A stretch of DNA of 64,000 bases from Octopus vulgaris (Eukaryota), in assembly GCA_951406725.2 (NCBI GenBank), contig OX597824.1, positions 41,974,001 through 42,038,000 on the forward strand, written 5' to 3'. The notes beneath the pieces were generated by a model that made no database searches, had not been told where the DNA came from, and worked only from the letters and a program-made list of their open reading frames with translations. Below, in pieces: positions 166 to 58,629 of the stretch. The position numbers and the translations under genes were made by a program. Numbering within the stretch: position 1 is the first letter of the stretch; each line of letters begins with the position of its first letter.

Positions 166-566
166 GCGCAGGAGTGGCTGTGTGGTAAGTAGCTTCCTAC
201 CAACCACATGGTTCCGGGTTCAGTCCCACTGCGTGGCATCTTGGGCAAGTGTCTTCTGCTATAGCCCCGGGCCGACCAATGCCTTGTGAGTGGATTTGGT
301 AGACGGAAACTGAAAGAAGCCTGTCGTATATATGTATATATATATATATATAAGTGTGTGTGTATATGTTTGTGTGTCTGTGTTTGTCCCCCTAGCATTA
401 CTTGACAACCGATGCTGGTGTGTTTACGTCCCCGTCACTTAGCGGTTCAGCAAAAAGAGACCGATAGAATAAGTACTGGGCTTACAAAGAATAAGTCCCG
501 GGGTCTATTTGCTCGACTAAAGGCGGTGCTCCAGCATAGCCACAGTCGAATGAGTGAAACAAGTAA

Positions 567-570
<4 letters not shown>
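166..570 (+). mobile_element. SINE family A (tRNA head, CORE-like segment, internal TA/TG microsatellite, LINE-like tail), full length
   Basis: A-box-like TGGCTGTGTGGT, B-box-like GGTTCAGTCCC, CTTGGGCAAGT segment, tail GGCGGTGCTCCAGCAT...TGAAACAAGTAAAA. More than 10 copies or fragments in the window. Confidence 0.9.
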
Positions 571-646
<76 letters not shown>

Positions 647-661
647 TTCTTTTCTTTTTTC

Positions 662-1059
662 TTTTTTACTTGTTTCAGTCATTTGACTGCGGCCATGCTG
701 GAGCACCGCCTTTAATCGAGCAACTCGACCCCAGGACTTATTTTTTTGTAAGCCCAGTACTTATTCTATCGGTCTCTTTTGCCGAACCGCTAAGTAACGG
801 GGACATAAACACACCAGCATCGGTTGTCAAGCAATGCTAGGGGACAAACACAGACACACGAACACACACACACACACATATATATATACATATATACGAC
901 GGGCTTCTTTCAGTTTCCGTCTACCAAATCCACTCACAAGGCTTTGGTCGGCCCGAGGCTATAGTAGAAGACACTTGCCCAAGGTGCCACGCAGTGGGAC
1001 TGAACCCGGAACCATGTGGCTGGTAAACAAGCTACTTACCACACAGCCACTCCTGCGCC
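662..1059 (-). mobile_element. SINE family A, full length, inverted relative to 166-570
   Basis: Reverse complement of the 166-570 element, separated from it by a (TA)n tract. Confidence 0.9.
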
Positions 1060-4430: not shown

Positions 4431-4751
4431 GGAGGCGCAATGGCCCAGTGGTTAGGGCAGCGGACTCGTGGTCGGAGGATCGCAGTTTCGATTCCCAGAT
4501 TGGGCGTTGTGTGTGTTTATTGAGCGAAAACACCTAAAGCTCCACAAAGCTCCGGCGAGGGGTGGGTGGCGACCCCTGTTGTACTCTTTCGCTCCAACTT
4601 TCTCTCACTCTCCCTTCCTGTTTTATGAGCAACGCTGCGATGGGCTGGCGTCCTGTCCAGCTGGGGGAACACATACGCCACAGAAACCGGGAAACCGGGC
4701 CCATGAGCCTGGCTAGGCTTGAAAAGGACGCACAAATAAATAAATAAATAA
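4431..4751 (+). mobile_element. SINE family C with 12-bp TSD
   Basis: tRNA-like head GGAGGCGCAATGGCCCAGTGGTTAGGGC...GTTTCGATTCCC and (TAAA)n tail. Direct repeat ATAATGAAAGAC at 4419-4430 and 4752-4763. Confidence 0.9.
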
Positions 4752-6095
4752 ATAATGAAAGACAACTATGATCAAGGTTGTGAATACGTGTCAGTGGATG
4801 ATGATGATGATGATGATAATGATGACGACGACGACGACGATGTTGGTGATGAGGAGGATGATAGTGACAACGGCAATGATAATGACGATGATGATAGTGT
4901 TGGTTGTAGTGACGGTGGTGGTAACGATGAGGGTTATACTGACAGGTGAAGATGTGGACGGGTAAAATAGATTAGCAGTAGTGACGTTCATGATGACGAC
5001 GTTGTTAGTGATTTCGAAAGGGAAAGCAAAGTTGGTGGTGCAGGGACGAGTTGCAACGATCGTATAGTTCGTTCATATACATACATACATACATACACAC
5101 ATATACAAACACACGTGCATGTGTGTATGGAGTGTTGAGTGTAAAGTGGAAGAATGAGGAGACACAAATGAATAGCTTCTTTTGGCCACCGTAGACGTCT
5201 CGTCTTCATGTCTTGCGAAAATTCTAGCCGCAGGCACTCTTCTCCCGTCCTTGCGATAAAAGCACGATCCGACACCGGCGACGACGACGACGACGACGAT
5301 GACGATGACTACAGCAGCAACAACAACAACAGAAACAACAAGAAAAACAACAACAACAACAACAATAACGACGATGACGAGGGCAACAGCTACAATGACA
5401 ACAACCAGTGTAGCAACGATATCGGCGACATTAACAATGAAAATTACAATTGACAAGGTGAATAAAGAACAAGAACAACAAGAACAACTTTATCGACGAC
5501 GATGTCAACAACAACAACAACAACAACAACGAGGCGATGATAACGAAGCTGACAGCAACAATGACAACGACAGCAATAACAGCGGTGACGATGGACGATG
5601 GCAAAGACGCAACTGTTACAATTTTAATACAATAATAATGGCAACAACCACGACAATAACAGAAGTGTCAAATGACCACCACCACGACAACAATAACAGC
5701 AACAATGACAATTAGTAGAATCGACAAGGAAAAACAAACAGCAACAATAACAACAACAACAACAGCAACAATTAAAGAAGTCTCATATATATGTAAAATA
5801 GTGGGCTTGATAGAAAAATTTCGGTTATCGGTGATTATTCAAACAATTAACAGATAAAGAAGAAACTCCCTGTAGGATGTTTAGATTTTTTTTTTAAATA
5901 GAGAAGAGAAAGGTATTCAAGGGAGATAACTTCAATATGATTACTTGATTGAACCTTGAGGCACAATATAGACGGTCGTTATAATTCCCACTGCCACCTT
6001 CGAAATCCCCAAACAGTACCACGATTATCGATATCACTAGACGTAATTAACGTATCTTACTCACCCATCCTATCACCCGTTAACATCATTGTCGT

Positions 6096-6865
6096 AAGGC
6101 GGCGAGCCGGCAGAAACGTTAGCACGCCGGGCGAAATGCTTAGCGGTATTTCGTCTGCCGCTACGTTCTGAGTTCAAATTCCGCCGAGGTCGACTTTGCC
6201 TTTCATCCTTTCGGGGTCGATAAATTAAGTACCAGTTACGCACTGGGGGTCGAAGTAATCGACTTAATCCGTTTGTCTGTCCTTGTTTGTCCCTTCTGTG
6301 TTTAGCCCCTTGTGGGTAATAAAGAAATAAGAATCGTTTGCATGCCAGGCGAAATGCTTAGCAGTATTTCGTCTGTCATTACGTTCTGAGTTCAAATTCC
6401 GCCGAGGTCGACTTTGCCTTTCATCCTTTCGGGGTCGATAAATTAAGTACCAGTTACGCACTGGGGTCGAAGTAATCGACTTAATCCGTTTGTCTGTCCT
6501 TGTTTGTCCTCTCTGTGTTTAGACCCTTGTGGGTAGTAAAGAAATAGGTATTTCGTCTGTCTTTACGTTCTGAGTTCAAATTCCGCCGAGGTCGACTTTA
6601 CCTTTTATCCTTTCGGGGTCGATAAATTAAGTAACAGTTGCGCACTTGGGTCAATGGAATCGACTTAATCCCTTTGTCTGTCCTTGTTTGTCTCCCCTAT
6701 GTTTATCCCCTTGTGGGTAATAAAGAAATAAGTAACGTTAGCACGCCGGGCGAAATGCTTAGCGGTATTTCGACTGTCTTTACGTTCTAAGTTCAAATTC
6801 CGCGAAGTCGATCTAATCCCTCTCCCAAAATTTCAGGCCTTGTGCCTAGAGTAGAAAAGAATTAT
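6096..6865 (+). mobile_element. SINE family B head-to-tail array (4 units)
   Basis: Repeated GAGTTCAAATTCCGCCGAGGTCGACTTTGCCTTTCATCCTTTCGGGGTCGATAAATTAAGTACCAG (resembles the Meta/MESC SINE domain, from recall). Three long tails ending AAAGAAATA, then one short tail ending GCCTTGTGCCTAGAGTAGAAAAG. Confidence 0.9.
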
Positions 6866-7499
6866 CGTCGTCGTCATCGTGTCATCGTCATCATCGTTGT
6901 CGTCGTCGTTGTCTTTGTCGCTGTCGTCGTCATCGTCGTCATCGTCGTCGTAGTTGTCTTTGTCGTCACCCTCTTCATCGTCGTAAGTTGCTTGCAATGA
7001 ACTACTTTATGCACTGACAAACACACATTCACACACACACATATGCTAATCAAATGAAACTGACTATACAAATATAAACAACGCAAGTTACACAAATAGC
7101 ATTAAAAGTCATAATAGAATTATCACCCAGTATAATGCTACTTACGGAATTCAGGTAGCATCGGATATTTGAAAAATTCTCTTTAGGGCATTAAATAAAC
7201 ATTTTTTTCCTCTAGATATTCCACTAAAACTTATCTAGCTGATAATAAAGCTGATAGTAAGAAATTGAATACTTATAGAAATAGCGACTGTAAGTTTAAT
7301 TAGTCAGGCGGCAAATACTATTACAAATACTGTTACAAATAATATGCTATCTGGTACAAAAATGGTGACGGCAATAATATTGTGTCTCCTCTTGGTAATA
7401 ACATTAACTGTAAAATAAATAAATAAATAAATAAATAAGCTCCCTGATGACAGTAAACTTAATAGTATTTTCAACTATAGGAATAGTAATATATTTAAT

Positions 7500-7692
7500 A
7501 TGTAAGCACTTAGCCACTACACACAGTTTTTTTCTCTCCTTGTTTCTCTCGTTTTTTTTTTATTTTTCTGTAGAAGAGAGTAGGCTAGAAACGTAAAAGG
7601 CTTTTTCAATTCCTGAGCGTTATACTAATACATCTGTTTGTTTTCTACACCACCTGTTTTCGTCTTTTGTTTTTTTCGTGAACTCTCCCTAT
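7500..7692 (+). mobile_element. PLE-like fragment with variant hammerhead motif (CUGUNGA family)
   Basis: 7563-7600: ttttt CTGTAGA a gaga gtag gcta GAAA cg TA aaagg. Homologous to the copies at 39485, 49770, 50567 and 58130. Confidence 0.65.
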
Positions 7693-7696
7693 ATAA

Positions 7697-7750
<54 letters not shown>

Positions 7751-8022
7751 GGGTTGACATTTCAAAAAAGAAGCTATTTTCAACTGCTTAGAATAGTGTA
7801 CTCAAAGATAAATCTTCTGAGAGTGAATATAGATAACTCGCACCATATTTGTTAGTCTGGCAATATATATATTCTGATCTGATTTGCCTATGCCTCATCG
7901 GGAACTCATGAGCCATTGACGAAGCAATATATATTTCATCAGATTAACGAATACGGATTACATAATCTCCCTGTCTGTCTCTATATATATATTTAGAGAG
8001 AGAGTGAAAGAGAGAAAAAGGA

Positions 8023-8057
<35 letters not shown>

Positions 8058-8187
8058 AAGAGGGAGAGAGATAAGTGCCAACGCACGAATTTTCGGCCCT
8101 TGAGTCACTCTGTTGCTTCTGCTAAATATTAATAAAATTATACATATACTCAAATTTCGAGTTCTATTTTTCATATATGCATCCCCA

Positions 8188-8264
<77 letters not shown>

Positions 8265-8273
8265 GTTTCTCTG

Positions 8274-8332
<59 letters not shown>

Positions 8333-10629
8333 GATCTCGGAACTCCATTATATGGAACAAATGTTACAAACCACCGTGCCCTCGAAAAGATGAAGGGCAA
8401 ATCCAGTGGGATTTGAACTCCAAGGGTCTGTAATCGGAGCAAATATAGCAAAGCCATCTACTCCCCCCATCTCTCTATCTCCCTCCCTTCTCCTTTCTCT
8501 TTGTTTATTTTTGTTAGTGGTGTCCTACGAGTATGGCAGTATTTAAACATTTTATTATAATTGGAAATCTGACAGACTTAACGGAGACATACGTGTTTGT
8601 GTGTGCGTGTGAGTTGTGTTTATATTGTGTATGTGTATGTTTGTGAGCTGGAAGAATACGAGGGTGGGGGGGCATACAATTTGAAAGAAGGAGAGAGGTG
8701 GGGGTTCTGAGTTGAAATATTCTAGAAGGTAACATCGTCCTCCAGTCAATAACAAGCGATCAGGTAACAGATTAAACATTAGATATCAGTGACGTGATGT
8801 AATTTCTACCACAGTTCAATCAACATGACAGTAAAACTTGGACAGAGGACGGCGGTAGTTTGGGCTGAGTGATTGATAGAAAGACAGAAAAACAGGGAAA
8901 ATATGTGTGTGTGTATATATTGATATTGATGTACGAGTAGGAGGAGGAAGAAGATCGCATGAGAAGGAGAAAAAGGGGGAAAGGAAAGATGAGGTGTGGT
9001 GGTGGTGAAAACTGATAATGAACAAGCAAGAGATGATATCAGACATTTTAATGACAAATTTGAGAAACAGAAAGTACTATAGTCGCATTGAAGATAAAAC
9101 AGCCATTCAGCAATCGACATAAGCGTGGTTCGAAACTCAACAGTAACCTTCTTGATTTCTTTCTGCATTAAATGGATGATGACTGCAATGCTGAAGGCGG
9201 TGGAACATTAGAACTGTGAGAATGTTGCACAGGAAGCCTTGTGATATTTCTTCCGTGTTTTTTTTGGGAGGAAGGGGGCTCTGAATTCAAATACCGCAAT
9301 GGCCCACTTGAGAGGTAAACTCAACCCGCCACCTGGTTTAGCACTAGTACCTGATATCTTATGTAATTTTAGTCCACACTACTGCAAGCATTTGGGCCAG
9401 GTTTCCTCTCTCCTTTTCCACACATGAGCTCTGCATTTCATCCCGATTAAGAAGTTAAAAAATACACTAACTTAATTAGCTCTTTGCAAATTACCAGCGT
9501 GCCTTAAACCCGACGCCATGTTATTCTAGTCTGATATATCTTTCTGTTCTATCATCATGTGCTCCATTGGAATCTTTTGTTATTCCTATATCATAGTTCC
9601 CTCCATAACTCTGGTCGTGAAATACCACGATTCTATCATTCGAATTATGTTCATAATTTTTTATATATATCTTTATTTGTTGTTCATGGTTTGAGAATTA
9701 TTTAAAAATTATAAGAAATCTTGGAAGGCTAAAAAACAGTAACCGATACATATATCAAGAAAATTCTTCACACGACATCATGAGCAGTATACAGAGCGCT
9801 TACGATCGTTCCAGAGCGTTGGAATTATTACAGTTATCAAGGGAGTCTACTGGCGGAATCACATCCTAAACGTAAGCAGTATCTCATTGGCTGGTGCTTC
9901 TCGCCAGGACTAAAAGAGATTGCACTCCACCTCAATGATTATTCACGATCTACAAAGCACATGCGAAGCCCACAACGGAGTATTGTGTCTGGAACGGTGC
10001 TGTTGCTGCAGACACAGACACTTTAGCCCGCAACCACTGAAGAGTCGCTCAACTGATTGGCATAGAATCACTCAGACACACTCTCAGAATCCAGGTCCAG
10101 GAGCACACTGTTTCTTCTCCATGACGACATTACCAGCCCTGACGTTAACCTTCCTTTCATTGCGCTTGTTTGTCCAACTTCCTTATCCATGAACTAAACA
10201 CTACGCATAGTCCTTCCTTCACCGACTGGCAGCCTGCTCATGTTTTTTTTCTCTGGTAGTATTTACTGCAATAGTTCGATAGGAATATTCATATTATCAA
10301 TCTCAATTGTATCGGAAGGCCCGTTAACGTCAAAGGCACTGCAACATGCAACAAGGAAAACATAGATCGATTGACAGAGCATTTGATGCGCAGTATATAG
10401 AAAGCTAGGGATATATAAATTAGATTGATGAATAGCTAGCAAATTAGATAGATAAATATATTTATCTAGTATATACCAATACACTATATACATGTATATA
10501 CAAGGACAGCAGAATCCTACGAAAGTACTGGTTAATTACCTAAACAAAGAATATTGAACATAATACTTAATACTCAATTGCAAGGTAACTATTTAAATCT
10601 TGGTTTATATATATTGTATTTATTATAAT

Positions 10630-11511: not shown

Positions 11512-13185
11512 GGTGATTAAGAGAGAGATAGACAGAGAGAGAGAGAGAGTGAGAGAGAGAGAGAAAGCGAGAAAGAGGCATACATACAAAAAGCCATAAA
11601 GATAGATAAGTAGATAGAAAGATAAGTAGTTCGTTAAATGGATGGATACATGGATACGTAGATACATAGTGATACATCCACAGATAGAAGTCATATAGAA
11701 AGATGGTATGTAGATTGAATGATAGATAGGTAGATGAATTTCAGGGATAGACGGTAGACGGATAGTTTGATATATGGATAGGAAGACATGGATAGGAAGA
11801 CAGGGATTTGGAAGACAGGCAGATGAAAAGTAGGCAGATAGAGGGTTATATAGATAAAGAGATAGAAACGTCACTGATATAATGACCTGTATGACAGAAG
11901 TACAGAGACAGCAAGATACATTGATAGATTATTGGCACAATCAAGGAGCGAAGGATTTATTCAGTACAAGGGATAGAGATGTAAGTTTATTGGAAGCTGA
12001 ATACGCTATTAGCACTTGATCATCTGCCGTTCATGTAGCGGTTAGCGAAGTTTCCCGTAACAAATTTATACTTACCAACGAATTACCTACTTACCTACCT
12101 ACCTAAAAGGATGGGTATATATATTTTTTATGCTGGAAAGCATTTATATACATTGGAAAGGTTACCTTCTTCAAGACGATAAATGCTCCCAAATAATATA
12201 CAGTTTGACGGAGAGAAGTCACTCCCAGAAATATGCAGACTGTGATGATTGTATGTATCCATGCAGGCACATAATTAACATATATGTATAAACTATTCAA
12301 ATGCACACATAAAAACAGAAAATATATGTTAACACTTATTTAAACTGGTACATATGAATACAAAGGGTTTTTTCGCTATTCGAATTTCAGGCATGGAAAT
12401 CTTATTTACATATTCAAAATGTTACGCTCTAGTTTGTAATAATCAGTCATATTTAGTCTATCAATTATTATGCGGTTATCGTTCTTACAGGTTTGTCCAT
12501 TATTATTAATGAAGCTGTTGTAGTATATTCGTCTTGCTTACAACTCCGAAAAATCATTCAATATGAATGAATTTGACAACCTGTACTAGAATAGGATCTC
12601 ATTTTTCGCATTGTGTAAGCATGCATCTTGCATAATGATACTACATTTTCCTGCAACACATTACGGACACTTCTCAGACACATTTACTTAAGGTGTCACA
12701 AAAGCTATTATGTCCATTCTATATCTATGTTAACATTTTTCTCTTTTACGAATCAAATAACAAGAGAAAGAGGTTGTATTTCTTTTATGTATCTTGCGGA
12801 ATGTGTTCATATGATATATTTGGGACAGTATTAAATGTTCGATGCTCCAATGGAATTGGTAGTTTTTTAAAATTATTTCTTAATTTAAAAATTACAGGTT
12901 TACATTTTTGGTATAGTACATTTGAATATATTTATAACTAAAGCCTGTATATTACAAGCTACTTTGCTAATCATTTTCTTGATGGCATGCTTTTGGTCTC
13001 TCTTGTCGCTGTAGATAAATTTTGCATTGTTTCTGTTAAAGAGCAGACGGAACTCATGGTCAATTGTAAAATGTAGAGGAATTAGTAATAACAAAAAATC
13101 TTCCCCACATTCGGCGGTACGTTCAGACAAAAAAATAGGTATATTATTGACATTATTTACAATTGACGTATATTTGTCCTCATCT

Positions 13186-13290
13186 TGTTTGTTGGTAACA
13201 CAACATTTCCGCTAATATACCCTCCAGCCTTCATCAGGTGTCTTGGGGGAAATTTCGAACCTGGGATTTCATTCCTAAGGTATTTTTCGA

Positions 13291-13342
<52 letters not shown>

Positions 13343-20585: not shown

Positions 20586-21160
20586 AGCTGGCAGAATTGT
20601 TAGCACGCCGGGCAAAATGCTTTTCTATTCTAGGTACAAGGCCCGAATTTTTTGGGAAGGGGTCCAGTCGATTAAATCAACTCCAGTACGCAACTGGTAC
20701 TTAATTTATCGAGCCCGAAAGGATGAAAGGCAAAGTCGACCTCGGCGGAATTTGAACTCAGAACGTAGTGGCGGACGAAATACCTATTTCTTTACTACCC
20801 ACAAGGGGCTAAACACAGAGAGGACAAACGGATTAAGTCGATTATATTGACTCCAGTGCGTAACTGGTACTTATTTAATCGACCCTGAAAGGATGAAAGG
20901 CAAAGTCGACCTCGGCGGAATTTGAACTCGGAACATAACGGCAGGCGAAATACCGCTAAGCATTTCACCAGGCGTGCTAACGATTCTGCTAGCTCGCAGC
21001 CTTTCGGGCAAAATGCTTAGCGGTATTTCATTCGCGTTTACGTTCTGAGCTCAAATTCCGCCGGCGTAGATAAAATAAGCACCAGCTGAGCACTGGGTTG
21101 GATGTAATCGACTCATCCTCTCGCCCAAAATTGCTGCCACTATGGCAAAATTTGAGACCA
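20586..21160. mobile_element. SINE B (+) interrupted by an antisense SINE B dimer with 14-bp TSD
   Basis: CGGGCAAAATGCTT at 20609-20622 and 21005-21018 flanks two minus-strand units. Confidence 0.85.
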
Positions 21161-27935: not shown

Positions 27936-28475
27936 GTGTGGTAAGTAAGTAGATTGCTTACCAACCACATGGTTCTGGGTTCAGTCCCACTGTGTAGGAC
28001 CTTGGGCAAGTATCTTTTTACGATAGCCTCGAGCCGACCAAAGACTTGTGAGTGGATTTGGTAGATGGAAACTGAAAGAAGTCCGTTGAATATATATATA
28101 TATATTTTCTAGTTTCAGCTCAGAGCTGCGGCCATGCTGATACACCGCCGTTTTGTGCTAGACTGTTATTGCGACGAACCTCGTCTAATATGTGGCACTT
28201 GGTGAAGAATGGAGTTTGATACAGCTACTCTCATTTGCACCTCTTGCCGTGAGGTAGGTTCATCTGGGACTCTTGACAGGAAGATATCCAGCTTTGATTT
28301 AAAAACCGCCACATCTACTTTGTGCAAGTTCCTCAGACTCTTTGGGAGAATATTAAAAAGCTGTGAGCCCTTGAAACCCAGGCTGTTGCAGAAGCTGGTC
28401 CTGAAGCGTGATGGCATTGCTGGGATCTTTGGCACTATGCAGTGTCGTCCCGTTCTAGCATTGGTGTAGCTTACA

Positions 28476-28506
<31 letters not shown>

Positions 28507-28773
28507 GTCTGTCTGTCTGTCTGTCTGTATGTATGTATGTATGTATGTATGTATGTATGTATGTATGTATGAATATGTTTGTGTGCCTGTGTTTGTCCTC
28601 CAACATCGCTTGACAACCGATGCTGGTGTGTTTACGTCTCCGTAACCTAGCGGTCCGGCAAAAGTGACCGATAGAATACGTCCTAGGCTCACAAAGAATA
28701 AGTCATGTGGTCGATTTGCCAAAGGCGGTACTCCACCATGGTCGCAGTCAAATGACTGAAACAAATAAAAGAA
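27936..28773 (+). mobile_element. SINE family A hosting a LINE fragment in its internal (TA)n
   Basis: Head at 27936-28088 and 3' half at about 28570-28773. Confidence 0.85.
28105..28480 (-). mobile_element. 5'-truncated CR1-group non-LTR retrotransposon 3' end (ORF2 C-terminus plus 3' UTR)
   Basis: Open frame ending at 28166: ...RTGRHCIVPKIP..FKGSQLFNILPKSLRNL..VFKSKLDIFLSRVPDEP..SNSILHQ, a typical LINE ORF2 tail. Flanked on both sides by (TA)n. Confidence 0.8.
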
Positions 28774-36614: not shown

Positions 36615-37255
36615 AATCCTTTCTACTATAGGCACAAGGCTTGAAATTTGGGGTAGGAGCTAGTGAATTACATCGAGCCCAGTTTTCGACTGGTAATTAT
36701 TTTATCGATCTTGAAAGGAATGAGAGACAAAGTCGGCCACGCCGGAATTTGAATATGCAACGTAAAGACAAAGGAAATGCCGGTAAGTATTTCATTCGGC
36801 ACAGTAACGATTCTACCATCTTGCCTCATTATTATTATTATTAGTCGTAGCTAAGGCGGCGAGCTGGCAGAAACGTTAGCACGCCGGGCGAAATGCGTAG
36901 CCGTATTTCGTCTGCCGTTACGTTCTGAGTTCAAATTCAGCCGACGTCGACTTTGCCTTTCATCCTTTCGGGGTCGATAAATTAAGTACCAGTTACGCAC
37001 TGGGGTCGATGTAATCGACTTAATCCGTTTGTCTGTCCTCGTTTGTCCTCTCTGGGTGTAGCCCCTTGTGGACAGTAAAGAAATAGGTATTTCGCCCGTC
37101 GCTACTTTCTGAGTTTATATTCCGCCGAGGTCGACTTTGTCTTTCATCCTTTCGGGCTCGATACATTAAGTACCAGTTGTGTACTGGGATCGATGTAATT
37201 GACTTAACCCCTCCCCCCATATTTCAGGCCTTGTGCCTATAGTAGAAATGGTTAT
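36615..37255. mobile_element. SINE family B: minus copy (36615-36828) and plus dimer (36853-37255)
   Basis: Family B core on both strands; junction GTAAAGAAATA|GGTATTTC at 37085/37086. Confidence 0.88.
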
Positions 37256-37274
37256 TGTTCTTAGCAGGTACCTT

Positions 37275-39470: not shown

Positions 39471-39484
39471 AACAGGGGTAGGAA

Positions 39485-39652
39485 CAACAAGTAGGTGTAA
39501 TAGTTTAACGCTCGGGAAAAATGGCAGTCTTTTACGTTTCGAGCCTACGCTCTTCGATAGAAAGGATTAACAGAAAAACTGTGGAGAGAGAATGAAAAAA
39601 AAAAAAAAAACGGAGAAAGAAAATGACGGTAAAAAGTCCACCATGGTGAAAT

Positions 39653-49752: not shown

Positions 49753-49996
49753 GTGTGTGTGTGTGTGTATAGGGAGAGTACAAACAGATGTATTAGTATA
49801 ACGCTCAGGATATTGAAAGAGTCTTTTACGTTTCGAGCCTAAAACGAACGTATGGATGTATATAGATCATATGATGGCTTAGCAGGACGAAACGTCGAAG
49901 TTACTGTCAATAACATTTCTCATAAAAAATGTACTCAACTAAATACTCTTGAGTAATTATTCAATTTAAAGTAAACTTGTTATTATAACTGAATAT

Positions 49997-50566: not shown

Positions 50567-50762
50567 TAACGGGAAAGTTTACGAAAATAAACAAAAGACG
50601 AAGGCAGGTGGAGTACAAACAAACAAATGTATTAGAATAGAAATAGAAATAGAATAGAAATAGAAATAGAAAAAGTCTTTTACATTTCGAGCCTACGCTC
50701 TTCGACAGAAAGATACACAGAAAAAACAAGGAGAGAAAAAAATGCGTGTAGGAGCTAACGAT
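50567..50762 (-). mobile_element. PLE-like fragment, CUGUNGA hammerhead family
   Basis: Minus 50713-50676: tcttt CTGTCGA a gagc gtag gctc GAAA tg TA aaaga. Inserted in (TA)n. Confidence 0.7.
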
Positions 50763-51087
50763 GTATATATATATTTATATATATATAAATTCATACGTGT
50801 ATACATTTGCGCTAATCTTACAACATTAAGAGTATTTTAACTTTAATTTTAGCAATGTTGGTGCTTTCACATCCTTAGTCACACTTAGAGATCATTGAAA
50901 CCTATACACACACGCGCGCACGCACACGCACGTACACACATATACAAATATATATATATATATATATATATAATTACATATATATATATATATATATATA
51001 TTTAGGTATGCATATATATATATATATATATATTTAGGTATGCATATATATATATACACCTATGTATATATATAGATACACATATAT

Positions 51088-58129: not shown

Positions 58130-58131
<2 letters not shown>

Positions 58132-58345
58132 ACGGGAAAGTTTACGAAAATAAACAAAAGACGAAGGCAGGTAGAGTACAAACAAACAAATGTATTAGTA
58201 TAGCGCTCAGGAATAGAAATAGAAAAAGTCTTTTACGTTTCGATCCTATGCTTTTCGACAGAAAGATACACAGAAAAAAAAACAGGGAGAGAAACAAGGA
58301 GAGAAAAAATGCGTGTAGGAGCTAACGATCTATCATGGCGTTCTG
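58130..58345 (-). mobile_element. PLE-like fragment, CUGUNGA hammerhead family
   Basis: Near-identical to 50567-50762. Minus 58266-58229: tcttt CTGTCGA a aagc atag gatc GAAA cg TA aaaga. Confidence 0.7.
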
Positions 58346-58629
58346 ACTTCGGACGTTATTTATATAACGTTGGTGGTGAATTTTTATGCAAAGAATCAGA
58401 AAGACTGACCACATTTTGAGAGGTGGGAAAGTTTGAATGCTGTGTGAAACACGAAGGCATTCATTGCCGATCTGCTGGTAGCCTTACAATATTTGCACAG
58501 CTGGGAGAATACCACTCAAATTTGGAAAGTGGCTGAATTCTCCATGTGTTGTAGGTTTTTTTTGTTTTTTTTTACTTGAACAGATGTAGTGTAGTTATGA
58601 ATGATTTATCTAGGGTACTTAAGATATTC

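What the first reader, a model, noticed from the sequence alone, without database searches (positions are those of the whole stretch)
50676..50713. Multi-copy family with a non-canonical hammerhead core (CUGUNGA plus an extra A)
Seen: four copies (7563 plus; 39529, 50676, 58229 minus) and a partial at 49821 share cuuu-CUGU(C/A)GA-A-gagc.guag.gcuc-GAAA-cg-UA-aaag; the 39529 copy has G5 changed to A. Stem I, stem II, ACGU stem III and the GUA triplet are HHR-like. Position 6 is U in all four copies, and one extra A precedes stem II. Known: A6 is nearly invariant in HHRs, and an extra A after A9 occurs in a viroid HHR. Inference: an abundant PLE-like family uses a variant core that canonical searches would miss, or has kept a non-cleaving fold with another role. 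I am not aware of this variant being described, but cannot check.
Basis: partly seen in the sequence, partly recalled or inferred. Interest (0 to 1): 0.72.

Follow-up and report, generated by a model that had tools for sequence, protein, structure and literature searches.

The report
Penelope hammerhead with fixed A6U core
More than 17,000 copies of a young Penelope-type jumping gene in this animal genome carry a hammerhead self-cutting-RNA motif in which a normally fixed core A is replaced by U while the rest of the motif has stayed unchanged, so it likely survives as a slowed ribozyme that would need a partner copy or the element's protein to cut, which is untested.

Summary
The motif is real. 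The window copies are 5'-truncated 3' ends (pLTRs) of a Penelope-like retrotransposon (RT plus GIY-YIG, Neptune/Nematis type). A 99.6%-identical four-pLTR tandem carries the same core. The extra A is ordinary: 54 of 56 published PLE hammerheads have a nucleotide there. A6U is the unusual part: 17,610 exact U6 matches against 226 with A6. U6 is the majority base in all 8 subfamilies compared. Across them only N7 and H17, the positions a hammerhead leaves free, changed (2 of 36 motif columns against 32 of 60 flank columns). Sister families keep A6, and the largest one seen has U4C instead. Selection on the fold therefore likely continued after A6U. Cleavage is not shown: no raw RNA reads were available and insertion ends do not pile up at the scissile bond. 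Best reading (0.5): an attenuated, dimer- or protein-assisted ribozyme. Main rival (0.35): a non-cleaving protein-binding fold. I found no natural A6U in five paper searches, but could not read Lünse 2017. This scan noted a U6 variant before in another genome (e1-9907171). New variant of a known kind.

The parts
50676..50713 (-). Minimal type I hammerhead-like motif: stem I (50712-50709 with 50680-50677), core C3 50708 to A9 50702, extra A 50701, stem II 50700-50689, GAAA 50688-50685, H17 50681. Predicted scissile bond 50681/50680. This copy has C15.2T.
   Evidence: MFE equals stem I + stem II
50705..50705 (-). U6, the variant core base (A in canonical hammerheads)
50567..50766 (-). 5'-truncated 3' pLTR stub of the Penelope-like element, with (TA)n at the 3' end and TA-rich sequence upstream
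   Evidence: 88% to L061, which carries the RT/GIY-YIG ORF
58131..58354 (-). Second pLTR stub, same subfamily type; core 58261-58234 with three decay changes
7510..7689 (+). pLTR stub of the N7=A subfamily; core 7568-7595 with two stem II decay changes
39472..39602 (-). pLTR stub of an older subfamily; core 39560-39533 with G5A
49772..49841 (-). Short stub truncated inside loop II; lacks the 5' half of the core

Best explanation
The motif is the minimal hammerhead in the pseudo-LTR of a Penelope-like retrotransposon whose lineage fixed A6U, and it likely still acts as a much slowed ribozyme that would cut only when two copies pair or the element's own protein refolds it. Shown: the window copies are truncated 3' pLTR stubs; full tandem units carry the same U6 core; U6 is fixed through all subfamilies compared while the rest of the core and both stems stayed unchanged. 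Inferred from published PLE work: tandem units are transcribed together; the RT/GIY-YIG protein nicks (TA)n and starts reverse transcription about 95-110 nt downstream of the scissile bond on uncleaved RNA, which explains the fixed 3' end and why the motif is copied whole. Inferred here: A6U weakens the uridine turn and favours an 'off' hairpin (U4-G16.2, G5-C15.2, U6-A15.1), so most transcripts stay uncut templates and cleavage is a rare or late step.
For: Element identity: (975-aa open stretch, RVT_1 E 1.3e-7 above cut-off, DKG, CX4CX2C linker, CCHH-type GIY-YIG); four U6 motifs spaced 4470-4477 nt, units 99.5-99.8% identical. U6 fixed: 17,610 vs 226; 165 T, 9 C, 1 A of 175 copies. Hammerhead-shaped constraint after A6U: across 8 subfamily majorities up to 29% apart, 0 of 28 core and stem columns vary vs 32 of 60 flank columns (Fisher 1e-7), or vs 8 of 32 columns of the best-conserved downstream block (0.005). 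N7 takes A/C/G/U and H17 takes A/C/U, never G. Contig depth peaks on the motif with loose ends at its borders in runs of four organism labels. Precedent: natural A6C keeps low activity (PMC3088659 section 8; PMC7151607); the anole PLE hammerhead cuts only with protein, and uncleaved RNA is the insertion template (PMC11167929). The off-helix has predicted probability 0.20-0.96 at the 6-15.1 pair in five U6 groups and 0 in three groups of natural A6 copies.
Against: No cleavage data. Deep mutagenesis of a type III hammerhead found all single and double mutants of the CUGA region low in activity except the C-G swap (PMC9901934 passages). PLE minimal hammerheads are already slow, so the product may be near zero. 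Loop II (GUAG) and 15.2/16.2 are also invariant in the U6 lineage, which catalysis alone does not require. 43 of 46 copies with the pLTR-5'UTR junction read through the motif and none ends within -28..+3 of the bond. Of 40 stub junctions, 6 lie at the bond and 7 at a control TA site. The test has little power: the canonical sister shows no pile-up either, 2 of 16. Columns are not independent, two of the 8 clusters are near-identical, and H17 changed only about three times, so absence of G could be chance.
Confidence: 0.5

Rival explanations
1. The ribozyme is dead but its fold has been kept as a binding or positioning signal for the element's RT protein (or a host factor) next to the reverse-transcription start site.
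For: Loop II is as invariant as the core in the U6 lineage. The two most abundant related lineages seen each carry a uridine-turn change: A6U, and U4C in 76 of the first 100 listed of 11,714 matches and 29 of 30 loci. Catalytic mutants of the anole hammerhead did not reduce insertion in vitro. Templates are copied through the motif.
Against: The only motif positions that changed are N7 and H17, the catalytically free ones, and G8, G12, A9, A13 and A14 never changed. A hairpin signal gives no reason for that pattern. The predicted U7-A14 extension of the off-helix is not conserved. Loop II differs in sister families.
Confidence: 0.35
2. A6U is fully compensated (by the extra A, loop II, the dimer or Mn2+), and the RNA cuts as well as sister A6 hammerheads.
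For: A6C barely affects cleavage in Mn2+ (PMC7151607). The invariant loop II could be part of a compensating contact.
Against: No second mutation rescued CUGA-region mutants in the deep scan. Sister A6 families have the same extra A and stem II, so these are not specific compensations.
Confidence: 0.08
3. A6U is neutral decay that hitch-hiked in a master copy; the motif is a relic under no selection.
For: Individual copies decay at all motif positions; all four window copies are damaged.
Against: Master lineages kept 34 of 36 motif columns while flanks diverged up to 29%. The motif is not inside the RT/EN ORF and stops occur near it in most frames, so coding constraint is unlikely.
Confidence: 0.07

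Closest known systems
Minimal type I hammerheads in pLTRs of animal Penelope-like elements (Cervera and de la Pena 2014, PMC4209133; read parts 1-2 of 4 of the text and parts 1-2 of 3 of supplement file 2)
   Same: Location in pLTRs, short stem I, extra nucleotide between 9 and 10.1, G10.1-C11.1, palindromic 15.2-16.2 without stem III, NUH, thousands of solo truncated copies.
   Different: All 56 representatives in their Fig. S3 have A6 (their descriptor also demanded it); the only core variant described is U3-A8. Here U6 is fixed.
Natural A6C hammerhead of phage Bcep176 (PMC3088659, section 8 and passages; PMC7151607, parts 1-2 of 4)
   Same: Natural substitution at core position 6; shows that position 6 can be lost with low residual, Mn2+-favoured activity.
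   Different: A single phage example with C. Here U, in more than 17,000 copies of a successful retroelement lineage and in a stem-III-less scaffold.
Poseidon PAc element of Anolis (PMC11167929, parts 1-2 of 4)
   Same: EN+ PLE, AT-rich targets, internal RT start downstream of the hammerhead, uncleaved RNA as template.
   Different: PAc has a canonical core shown to cut with protein help and its ORF overlaps the motif. Here the ORF starts about 700 nt downstream, and the linker zinc finger marks the Neptune/Nematis type.
Animal non-LTR retrozymes (bioRxiv 10.64898/2026.07.22.740005, passages; PMC7229834, search listing only)
   Same: Some U6 copies form non-coding tandem arrays of about 470-490 nt (L157, L158).
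   Different: The window copies are solo stubs, and the family has its own RT/EN ORF.

Membership tests
EN+ Penelope-like element, Neptune/Nematis type | Single ORF with PLE-type RT (DKG motif, YxDD) | tested here: met
   L155:4794-7718, RVT_1 E 1.3e-7, 32 bits vs cut-off 29.6; KPADKGG and YIDD read
EN+ Penelope-like element, Neptune/Nematis type | C-terminal GIY-YIG endonuclease with CCHH motif | tested here: met
   GIY-YIG E 0.0072, below the Pfam cut-off; IIY-C-x2-C-x2-C...YIG and downstream His read by eye; definition from PMC8557442 passages
EN+ Penelope-like element, Neptune/Nematis type | CX2-5CxxC zinc-finger-like linker between RT and EN | tested here: met
   C-x4-C-x2-C upstream of the EN
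EN+ Penelope-like element, Neptune/Nematis type | Tandem or partial-tandem units forming pLTRs; 5' truncation; (TA)n targets | tested here: met
Neptune clade specifically | RT phylogeny | not tested
   No reference RT set was fetched; Neptune versus Nematis is not resolved
PLE minimal type I hammerhead | Stems I and II around the core; G10.1-C11.1; palindromic 15.1-16.1; NUH | tested here: met
   (stem II P 0.9, stem I P 0.67-0.8 in 120-nt context)
PLE minimal type I hammerhead | Extra nucleotide between 9 and 10.1 | tested here: met
   A in all 11 cluster majorities compared; known feature
PLE minimal type I hammerhead | Core consensus CUGANGA | tested here: not met
   U6 in 17,610 vs A6 in 226 exact matches
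PLE minimal type I hammerhead | Covariation of stems | tested here: inconclusive
   Invariant within the U6 lineage; 1 of 8 pairs changes on both sides against sister families, in a 9-row alignment
Hammerhead ribozyme (catalytic class) | Self-cleavage 3' of H17 | not testable with these tools
   Only contigs were served; genomic junction test lacks power
Rfam hammerhead families | Covariance-model match | tested here: not met
   None among all 43 matches on four loci; none among 150 listed of 464 on the window
Non-LTR retrozyme | Non-coding tandem units without own RT | tested here: not met
   Window copies are solo stubs of a coding element; derivative arrays exist elsewhere

The most novel reading that the evidence does not exclude
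In this Penelope clade the hammerhead has been tuned down on purpose, twice: one lineage fixed A6U and its sister fixed U4C, both in the uridine turn. The result is either a protein-gated switch or a non-cleaving fold that guides reverse transcription, and these weakened forms out-replicated their canonical relatives.
Probability: 0.3. Interest if true: 0.75.

Novelty: new variant of a known kind. Interest (0 to 1): 0.52.

Why it matters
What the hammerhead does for Penelope-like elements is open: in the one in-vitro system, catalytic mutants inserted normally. This genome offers a natural experiment. Sister lineages share stem II and the extra A but differ at the uridine turn (A6/U4, U6, C4), and a nearly intact young U6 element is at hand for biochemistry. 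If U6 cuts, the accepted core consensus is too strict and descriptor searches undercount hammerheads by tens of thousands per genome. If it does not, it is a ribozyme fold kept under selection for a non-catalytic job.

Tried and rejected
Rfam on the window and on four loci: no hammerhead match listed. The repeat finder was swamped by microsatellites. Pile-up of 5' ends at the scissile bond: not found, and explained by TA microhomology; the canonical sister shows none either, so the test is uninformative. Expression and RNA ends: no RNA holder on record was listed and only contigs were served. The contig difference tables did not list even N7, which is known to vary, so I do not use the absence of a listed change at position 6 as evidence. 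An ancestral or revertant A6 subfamily with the same loop: 30 A6 copies scatter over six subfamilies and 19 carry their subfamily's N7. T>A at position 4 gives about 110 copies (30 of the first 100 listed of 363) against 226 at position 6, the same order, though a small A6 master copy is not excluded (about 7 of the first 100 listed in one old subfamily). My idea that U4C stabilises the same off-helix as U6: predicted probability 0, rejected. Coding constraint on the motif: unlikely. An ORF for the C4 sister family: none in 30 loci. First clustering of subfamilies by average linkage failed on old copies and was redone. Lünse et al. 2017 and a hammerhead mutational review are not held in the library, so neither was read.

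Full report
Observation. Each window copy carries one to three private decay changes, including the focal one (C15.2T). The similarity extends well beyond the motif: the copies are 70-230 nt stubs that share a fixed 3' end about 95-110 nt after the predicted scissile bond and abut (TA)n. The window lies in a 2.8-Gb animal genome; earlier scan notes call it octopus (e1-8672306), which I did not test.

What the stubs are. Walking upstream through longer copies led to L061, where the same 3' end follows a broken ORF with RT and GIY-YIG similarity. Copies that reach the 5' end of the ORF carry a second copy of the motif upstream: 6 of 30 loci within the stretch held. At G000:C6:117.39 Mb four motifs follow each other at 4470, 4477 and 4477 nt, and the units are 99.5-99.8% identical. 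One unit has a 975-aa open stretch with RVT_1 (E 1.3e-7, above cut-off) and a weak GIY-YIG hit (E 0.0072, below cut-off). [quoted passage not shown] By the definitions in PMC8557442 (passages) this is a C-terminal EN+ Penelope-like element of the Neptune/Nematis type. All four motifs of this very young tandem have U6.

The extra A is known. Cervera and de la Pena (PMC4209133; text parts 1-2 of 4, supplement file 2 parts 1-2 of 3; file 1 was not searchable) list the conserved nucleotide between 9 and 10.1 as a hallmark of PLE minimal hammerheads. In their Fig. S3, 54 of 56 rows have it and 56 of 56 have A6. Canonical-core motifs with that extra nucleotide also occur 19,673 times in this genome against 559 for the control.

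U6 is the family state. Exact 25-nt matches: 17,610 with T6 and 226 with A6, controls 0. Thirty A6 copies scatter over six subfamilies, and 19 carry the N7 base of their nearest subfamily. T>A at position 4 gives about 110 copies. The A6 copies therefore look mostly like back-mutations after insertion. Among 175 U6-lineage copies not picked by core pattern, position 6 is T in 165, C in 9 and A in 1. Caveats on that set: 40 of the loci were hand-picked from flank-anchored listings for showing the motif and older flanks, and the script dropped hits with under 14 of 18 anchor matches or too near a locus end.

Selection continued after A6U. Clustering 207 copies on flanks alone gave 14 clusters. 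I compared the 8 U6 clusters with 9 or more members and left out two small U6 clusters (6 and 2 members; the 6-member one has a C3T majority) and one 2-member cluster. Their majority sequences differ by up to 29%, two being nearly identical. Of 28 core and stem columns none varies; of 60 flank columns 32 vary (Fisher 1e-7). Against the best-conserved, non-homopolymer 32-nt downstream block the figures are 0 of 28 vs 8 of 32 (0.005), or 2 of 36 vs 8 of 32 (0.04). The two motif columns that change are N7 (A, C, G, U) and H17 (A, C, U). Columns are not independent, so these P values are only indicative. Loop II is also invariant, which catalysis would not demand. Contigs of runs from four coded organism labels pile up on the motif with loose ends at its borders. 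One contig of label D covers 3698-3815 of L155, including position 6, with no other letter and one gap.

Sister families give the polarity and a second variant. Related pLTRs (about 60-67% identical over motif and flanks) share stem II GAGC/GCTC and the extra A, have other loops, and keep A6. The outer stem I pair is C-G in the U6 lineage and G-C or G-U in the sisters; this is the only two-sided change among 8 pairs in a 9-row alignment. Letter-for-letter alignment fixes the register, so the change is a substitution at position 6. One sister subfamily has U4C: 76 of the first 100 listed of 11,714 exact matches and 29 of 30 best matches to one C4 copy. I did not link that subfamily to an ORF. 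Perreault et al. note that U4 contacts the A6-N7 phosphate and that A6C should break one or two hydrogen bonds (PMC3088659 section 8), and mention a viroid U4C variant with low activity in vitro but enough in vivo (passage). That the U-turn needs a purine N7 at position 6 is recalled, not from a call.

Does it cut? Not shown. For: the constraint pattern above; natural A6C retains low, Mn2+-favoured activity (PMC7151607, parts 1-2 of 4); the anole PLE hammerhead cuts only with its protein and no reads end at its site (PMC11167929, parts 1-2 of 4). Against: all CUGA-region mutants but the C-G swap were poor in a deep scan (PMC9901934 passages), and these minimal motifs are slow to begin with. 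Folding puts stems I and II in place for intact copies. It also shows that U6 allows a competing helix with the ACG of stem III: P 0.20-0.96 in five U6 groups, 0 at that pair in three groups of natural A6 copies. The A6 sister families form a different competing helix. Genomic ends do not decide: 43 of 46 junction copies read through the motif and 3 start downstream of it. Of 40 distinct stubs in the first 100 rows, 6 start at the bond and 7 at a control TA site in loop II (counted by eye). The canonical sister has 2 of 16 at the bond. No raw RNA reads were served.

Mechanism. Most likely (0.5) a weakened ribozyme in an element that copies uncleaved tandem transcripts from an internal start downstream of the motif, with cleavage rare or late and dependent on dimer formation through the ACGU palindrome or on the ORF protein. 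Next (0.35) a dead ribozyme whose fold is kept for protein binding. Full compensation (0.08) and neutral decay (0.07) are unlikely. The identity of the element and the fixation of U6 are shown; every step about RNA behaviour is inferred.

Novelty. I found no natural A6U hammerhead in five searches: hammerhead + A6U (one twister paper listed, not read), U6 core strings (25 of 34 listed, none with CUGUNGA), octopus, cephalopod and a general search from 2017 on. Lünse et al. 2017, the largest survey of PLE hammerhead variants, and its supplements could not be read and may hold such rows. This scan noted a U6 family once before in another genome (e1-9907171) and other core variants in this one (e1-8802259); these are unchecked notes, not support. 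Verdict: a new variant of a known kind; it fails the strict core consensus but sits, folds and evolves like a PLE hammerhead. Interest 0.52.

Noticed in passing
G000 genome-wide; e.g. L336, L394-L423: Sister pLTR subfamily with a fixed U4C core, about three quarters of 11,714 exact matches; a second uridine-turn variant in the same clade.
   Followed up: partly
L157 (G000:C8:18599500-18604500) and L158: Near-identical tandem arrays of about 492 and 468 nt made of pLTR plus 5'UTR, each unit with the U6 motif, L157 with an inverted partial copy; retrozyme-like derivatives of the young element.
   Followed up: partly
L032 and L079: Chimeric pLTRs that switch between the U6 lineage and the A6 sister family inside or just after the hammerhead motif; probably template switching at shared sequence.
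   Followed up: no
window 13143-13321 (-), core at 13237: Decayed copy of another abundant repeat family with a canonical CUGAUGA-A core and a longer stem II; the commonest type in the canonical-core listing. Not linked to an ORF here.
   Followed up: partly
window 485-747: Long inverted repeat around a (TA)n stretch, made of a common short repeat in two orientations; hit MIR841 far below its gathering score. A second long inverted pair lies at 20613-20830 and 37040-37257.
   Followed up: no
window 28169-28702 (-): Open stretch whose end resembles the C-terminus of a LINE-type retrotransposon ORF (judged by eye, resemblance recalled).
   Followed up: no
L061, positions about 4800-9700 (-): A fairly complete LINE-like element (gag-like ORF, endonuclease, RT) upstream of the Penelope copy (judged by eye).
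   Followed up: no
L155:3640-4300: The young pLTR-5'UTR is held at about 99% identity in contigs of runs under four organism labels; labels are coded, so horizontal transfer, close species or mislabelling cannot be told apart.
   Followed up: no
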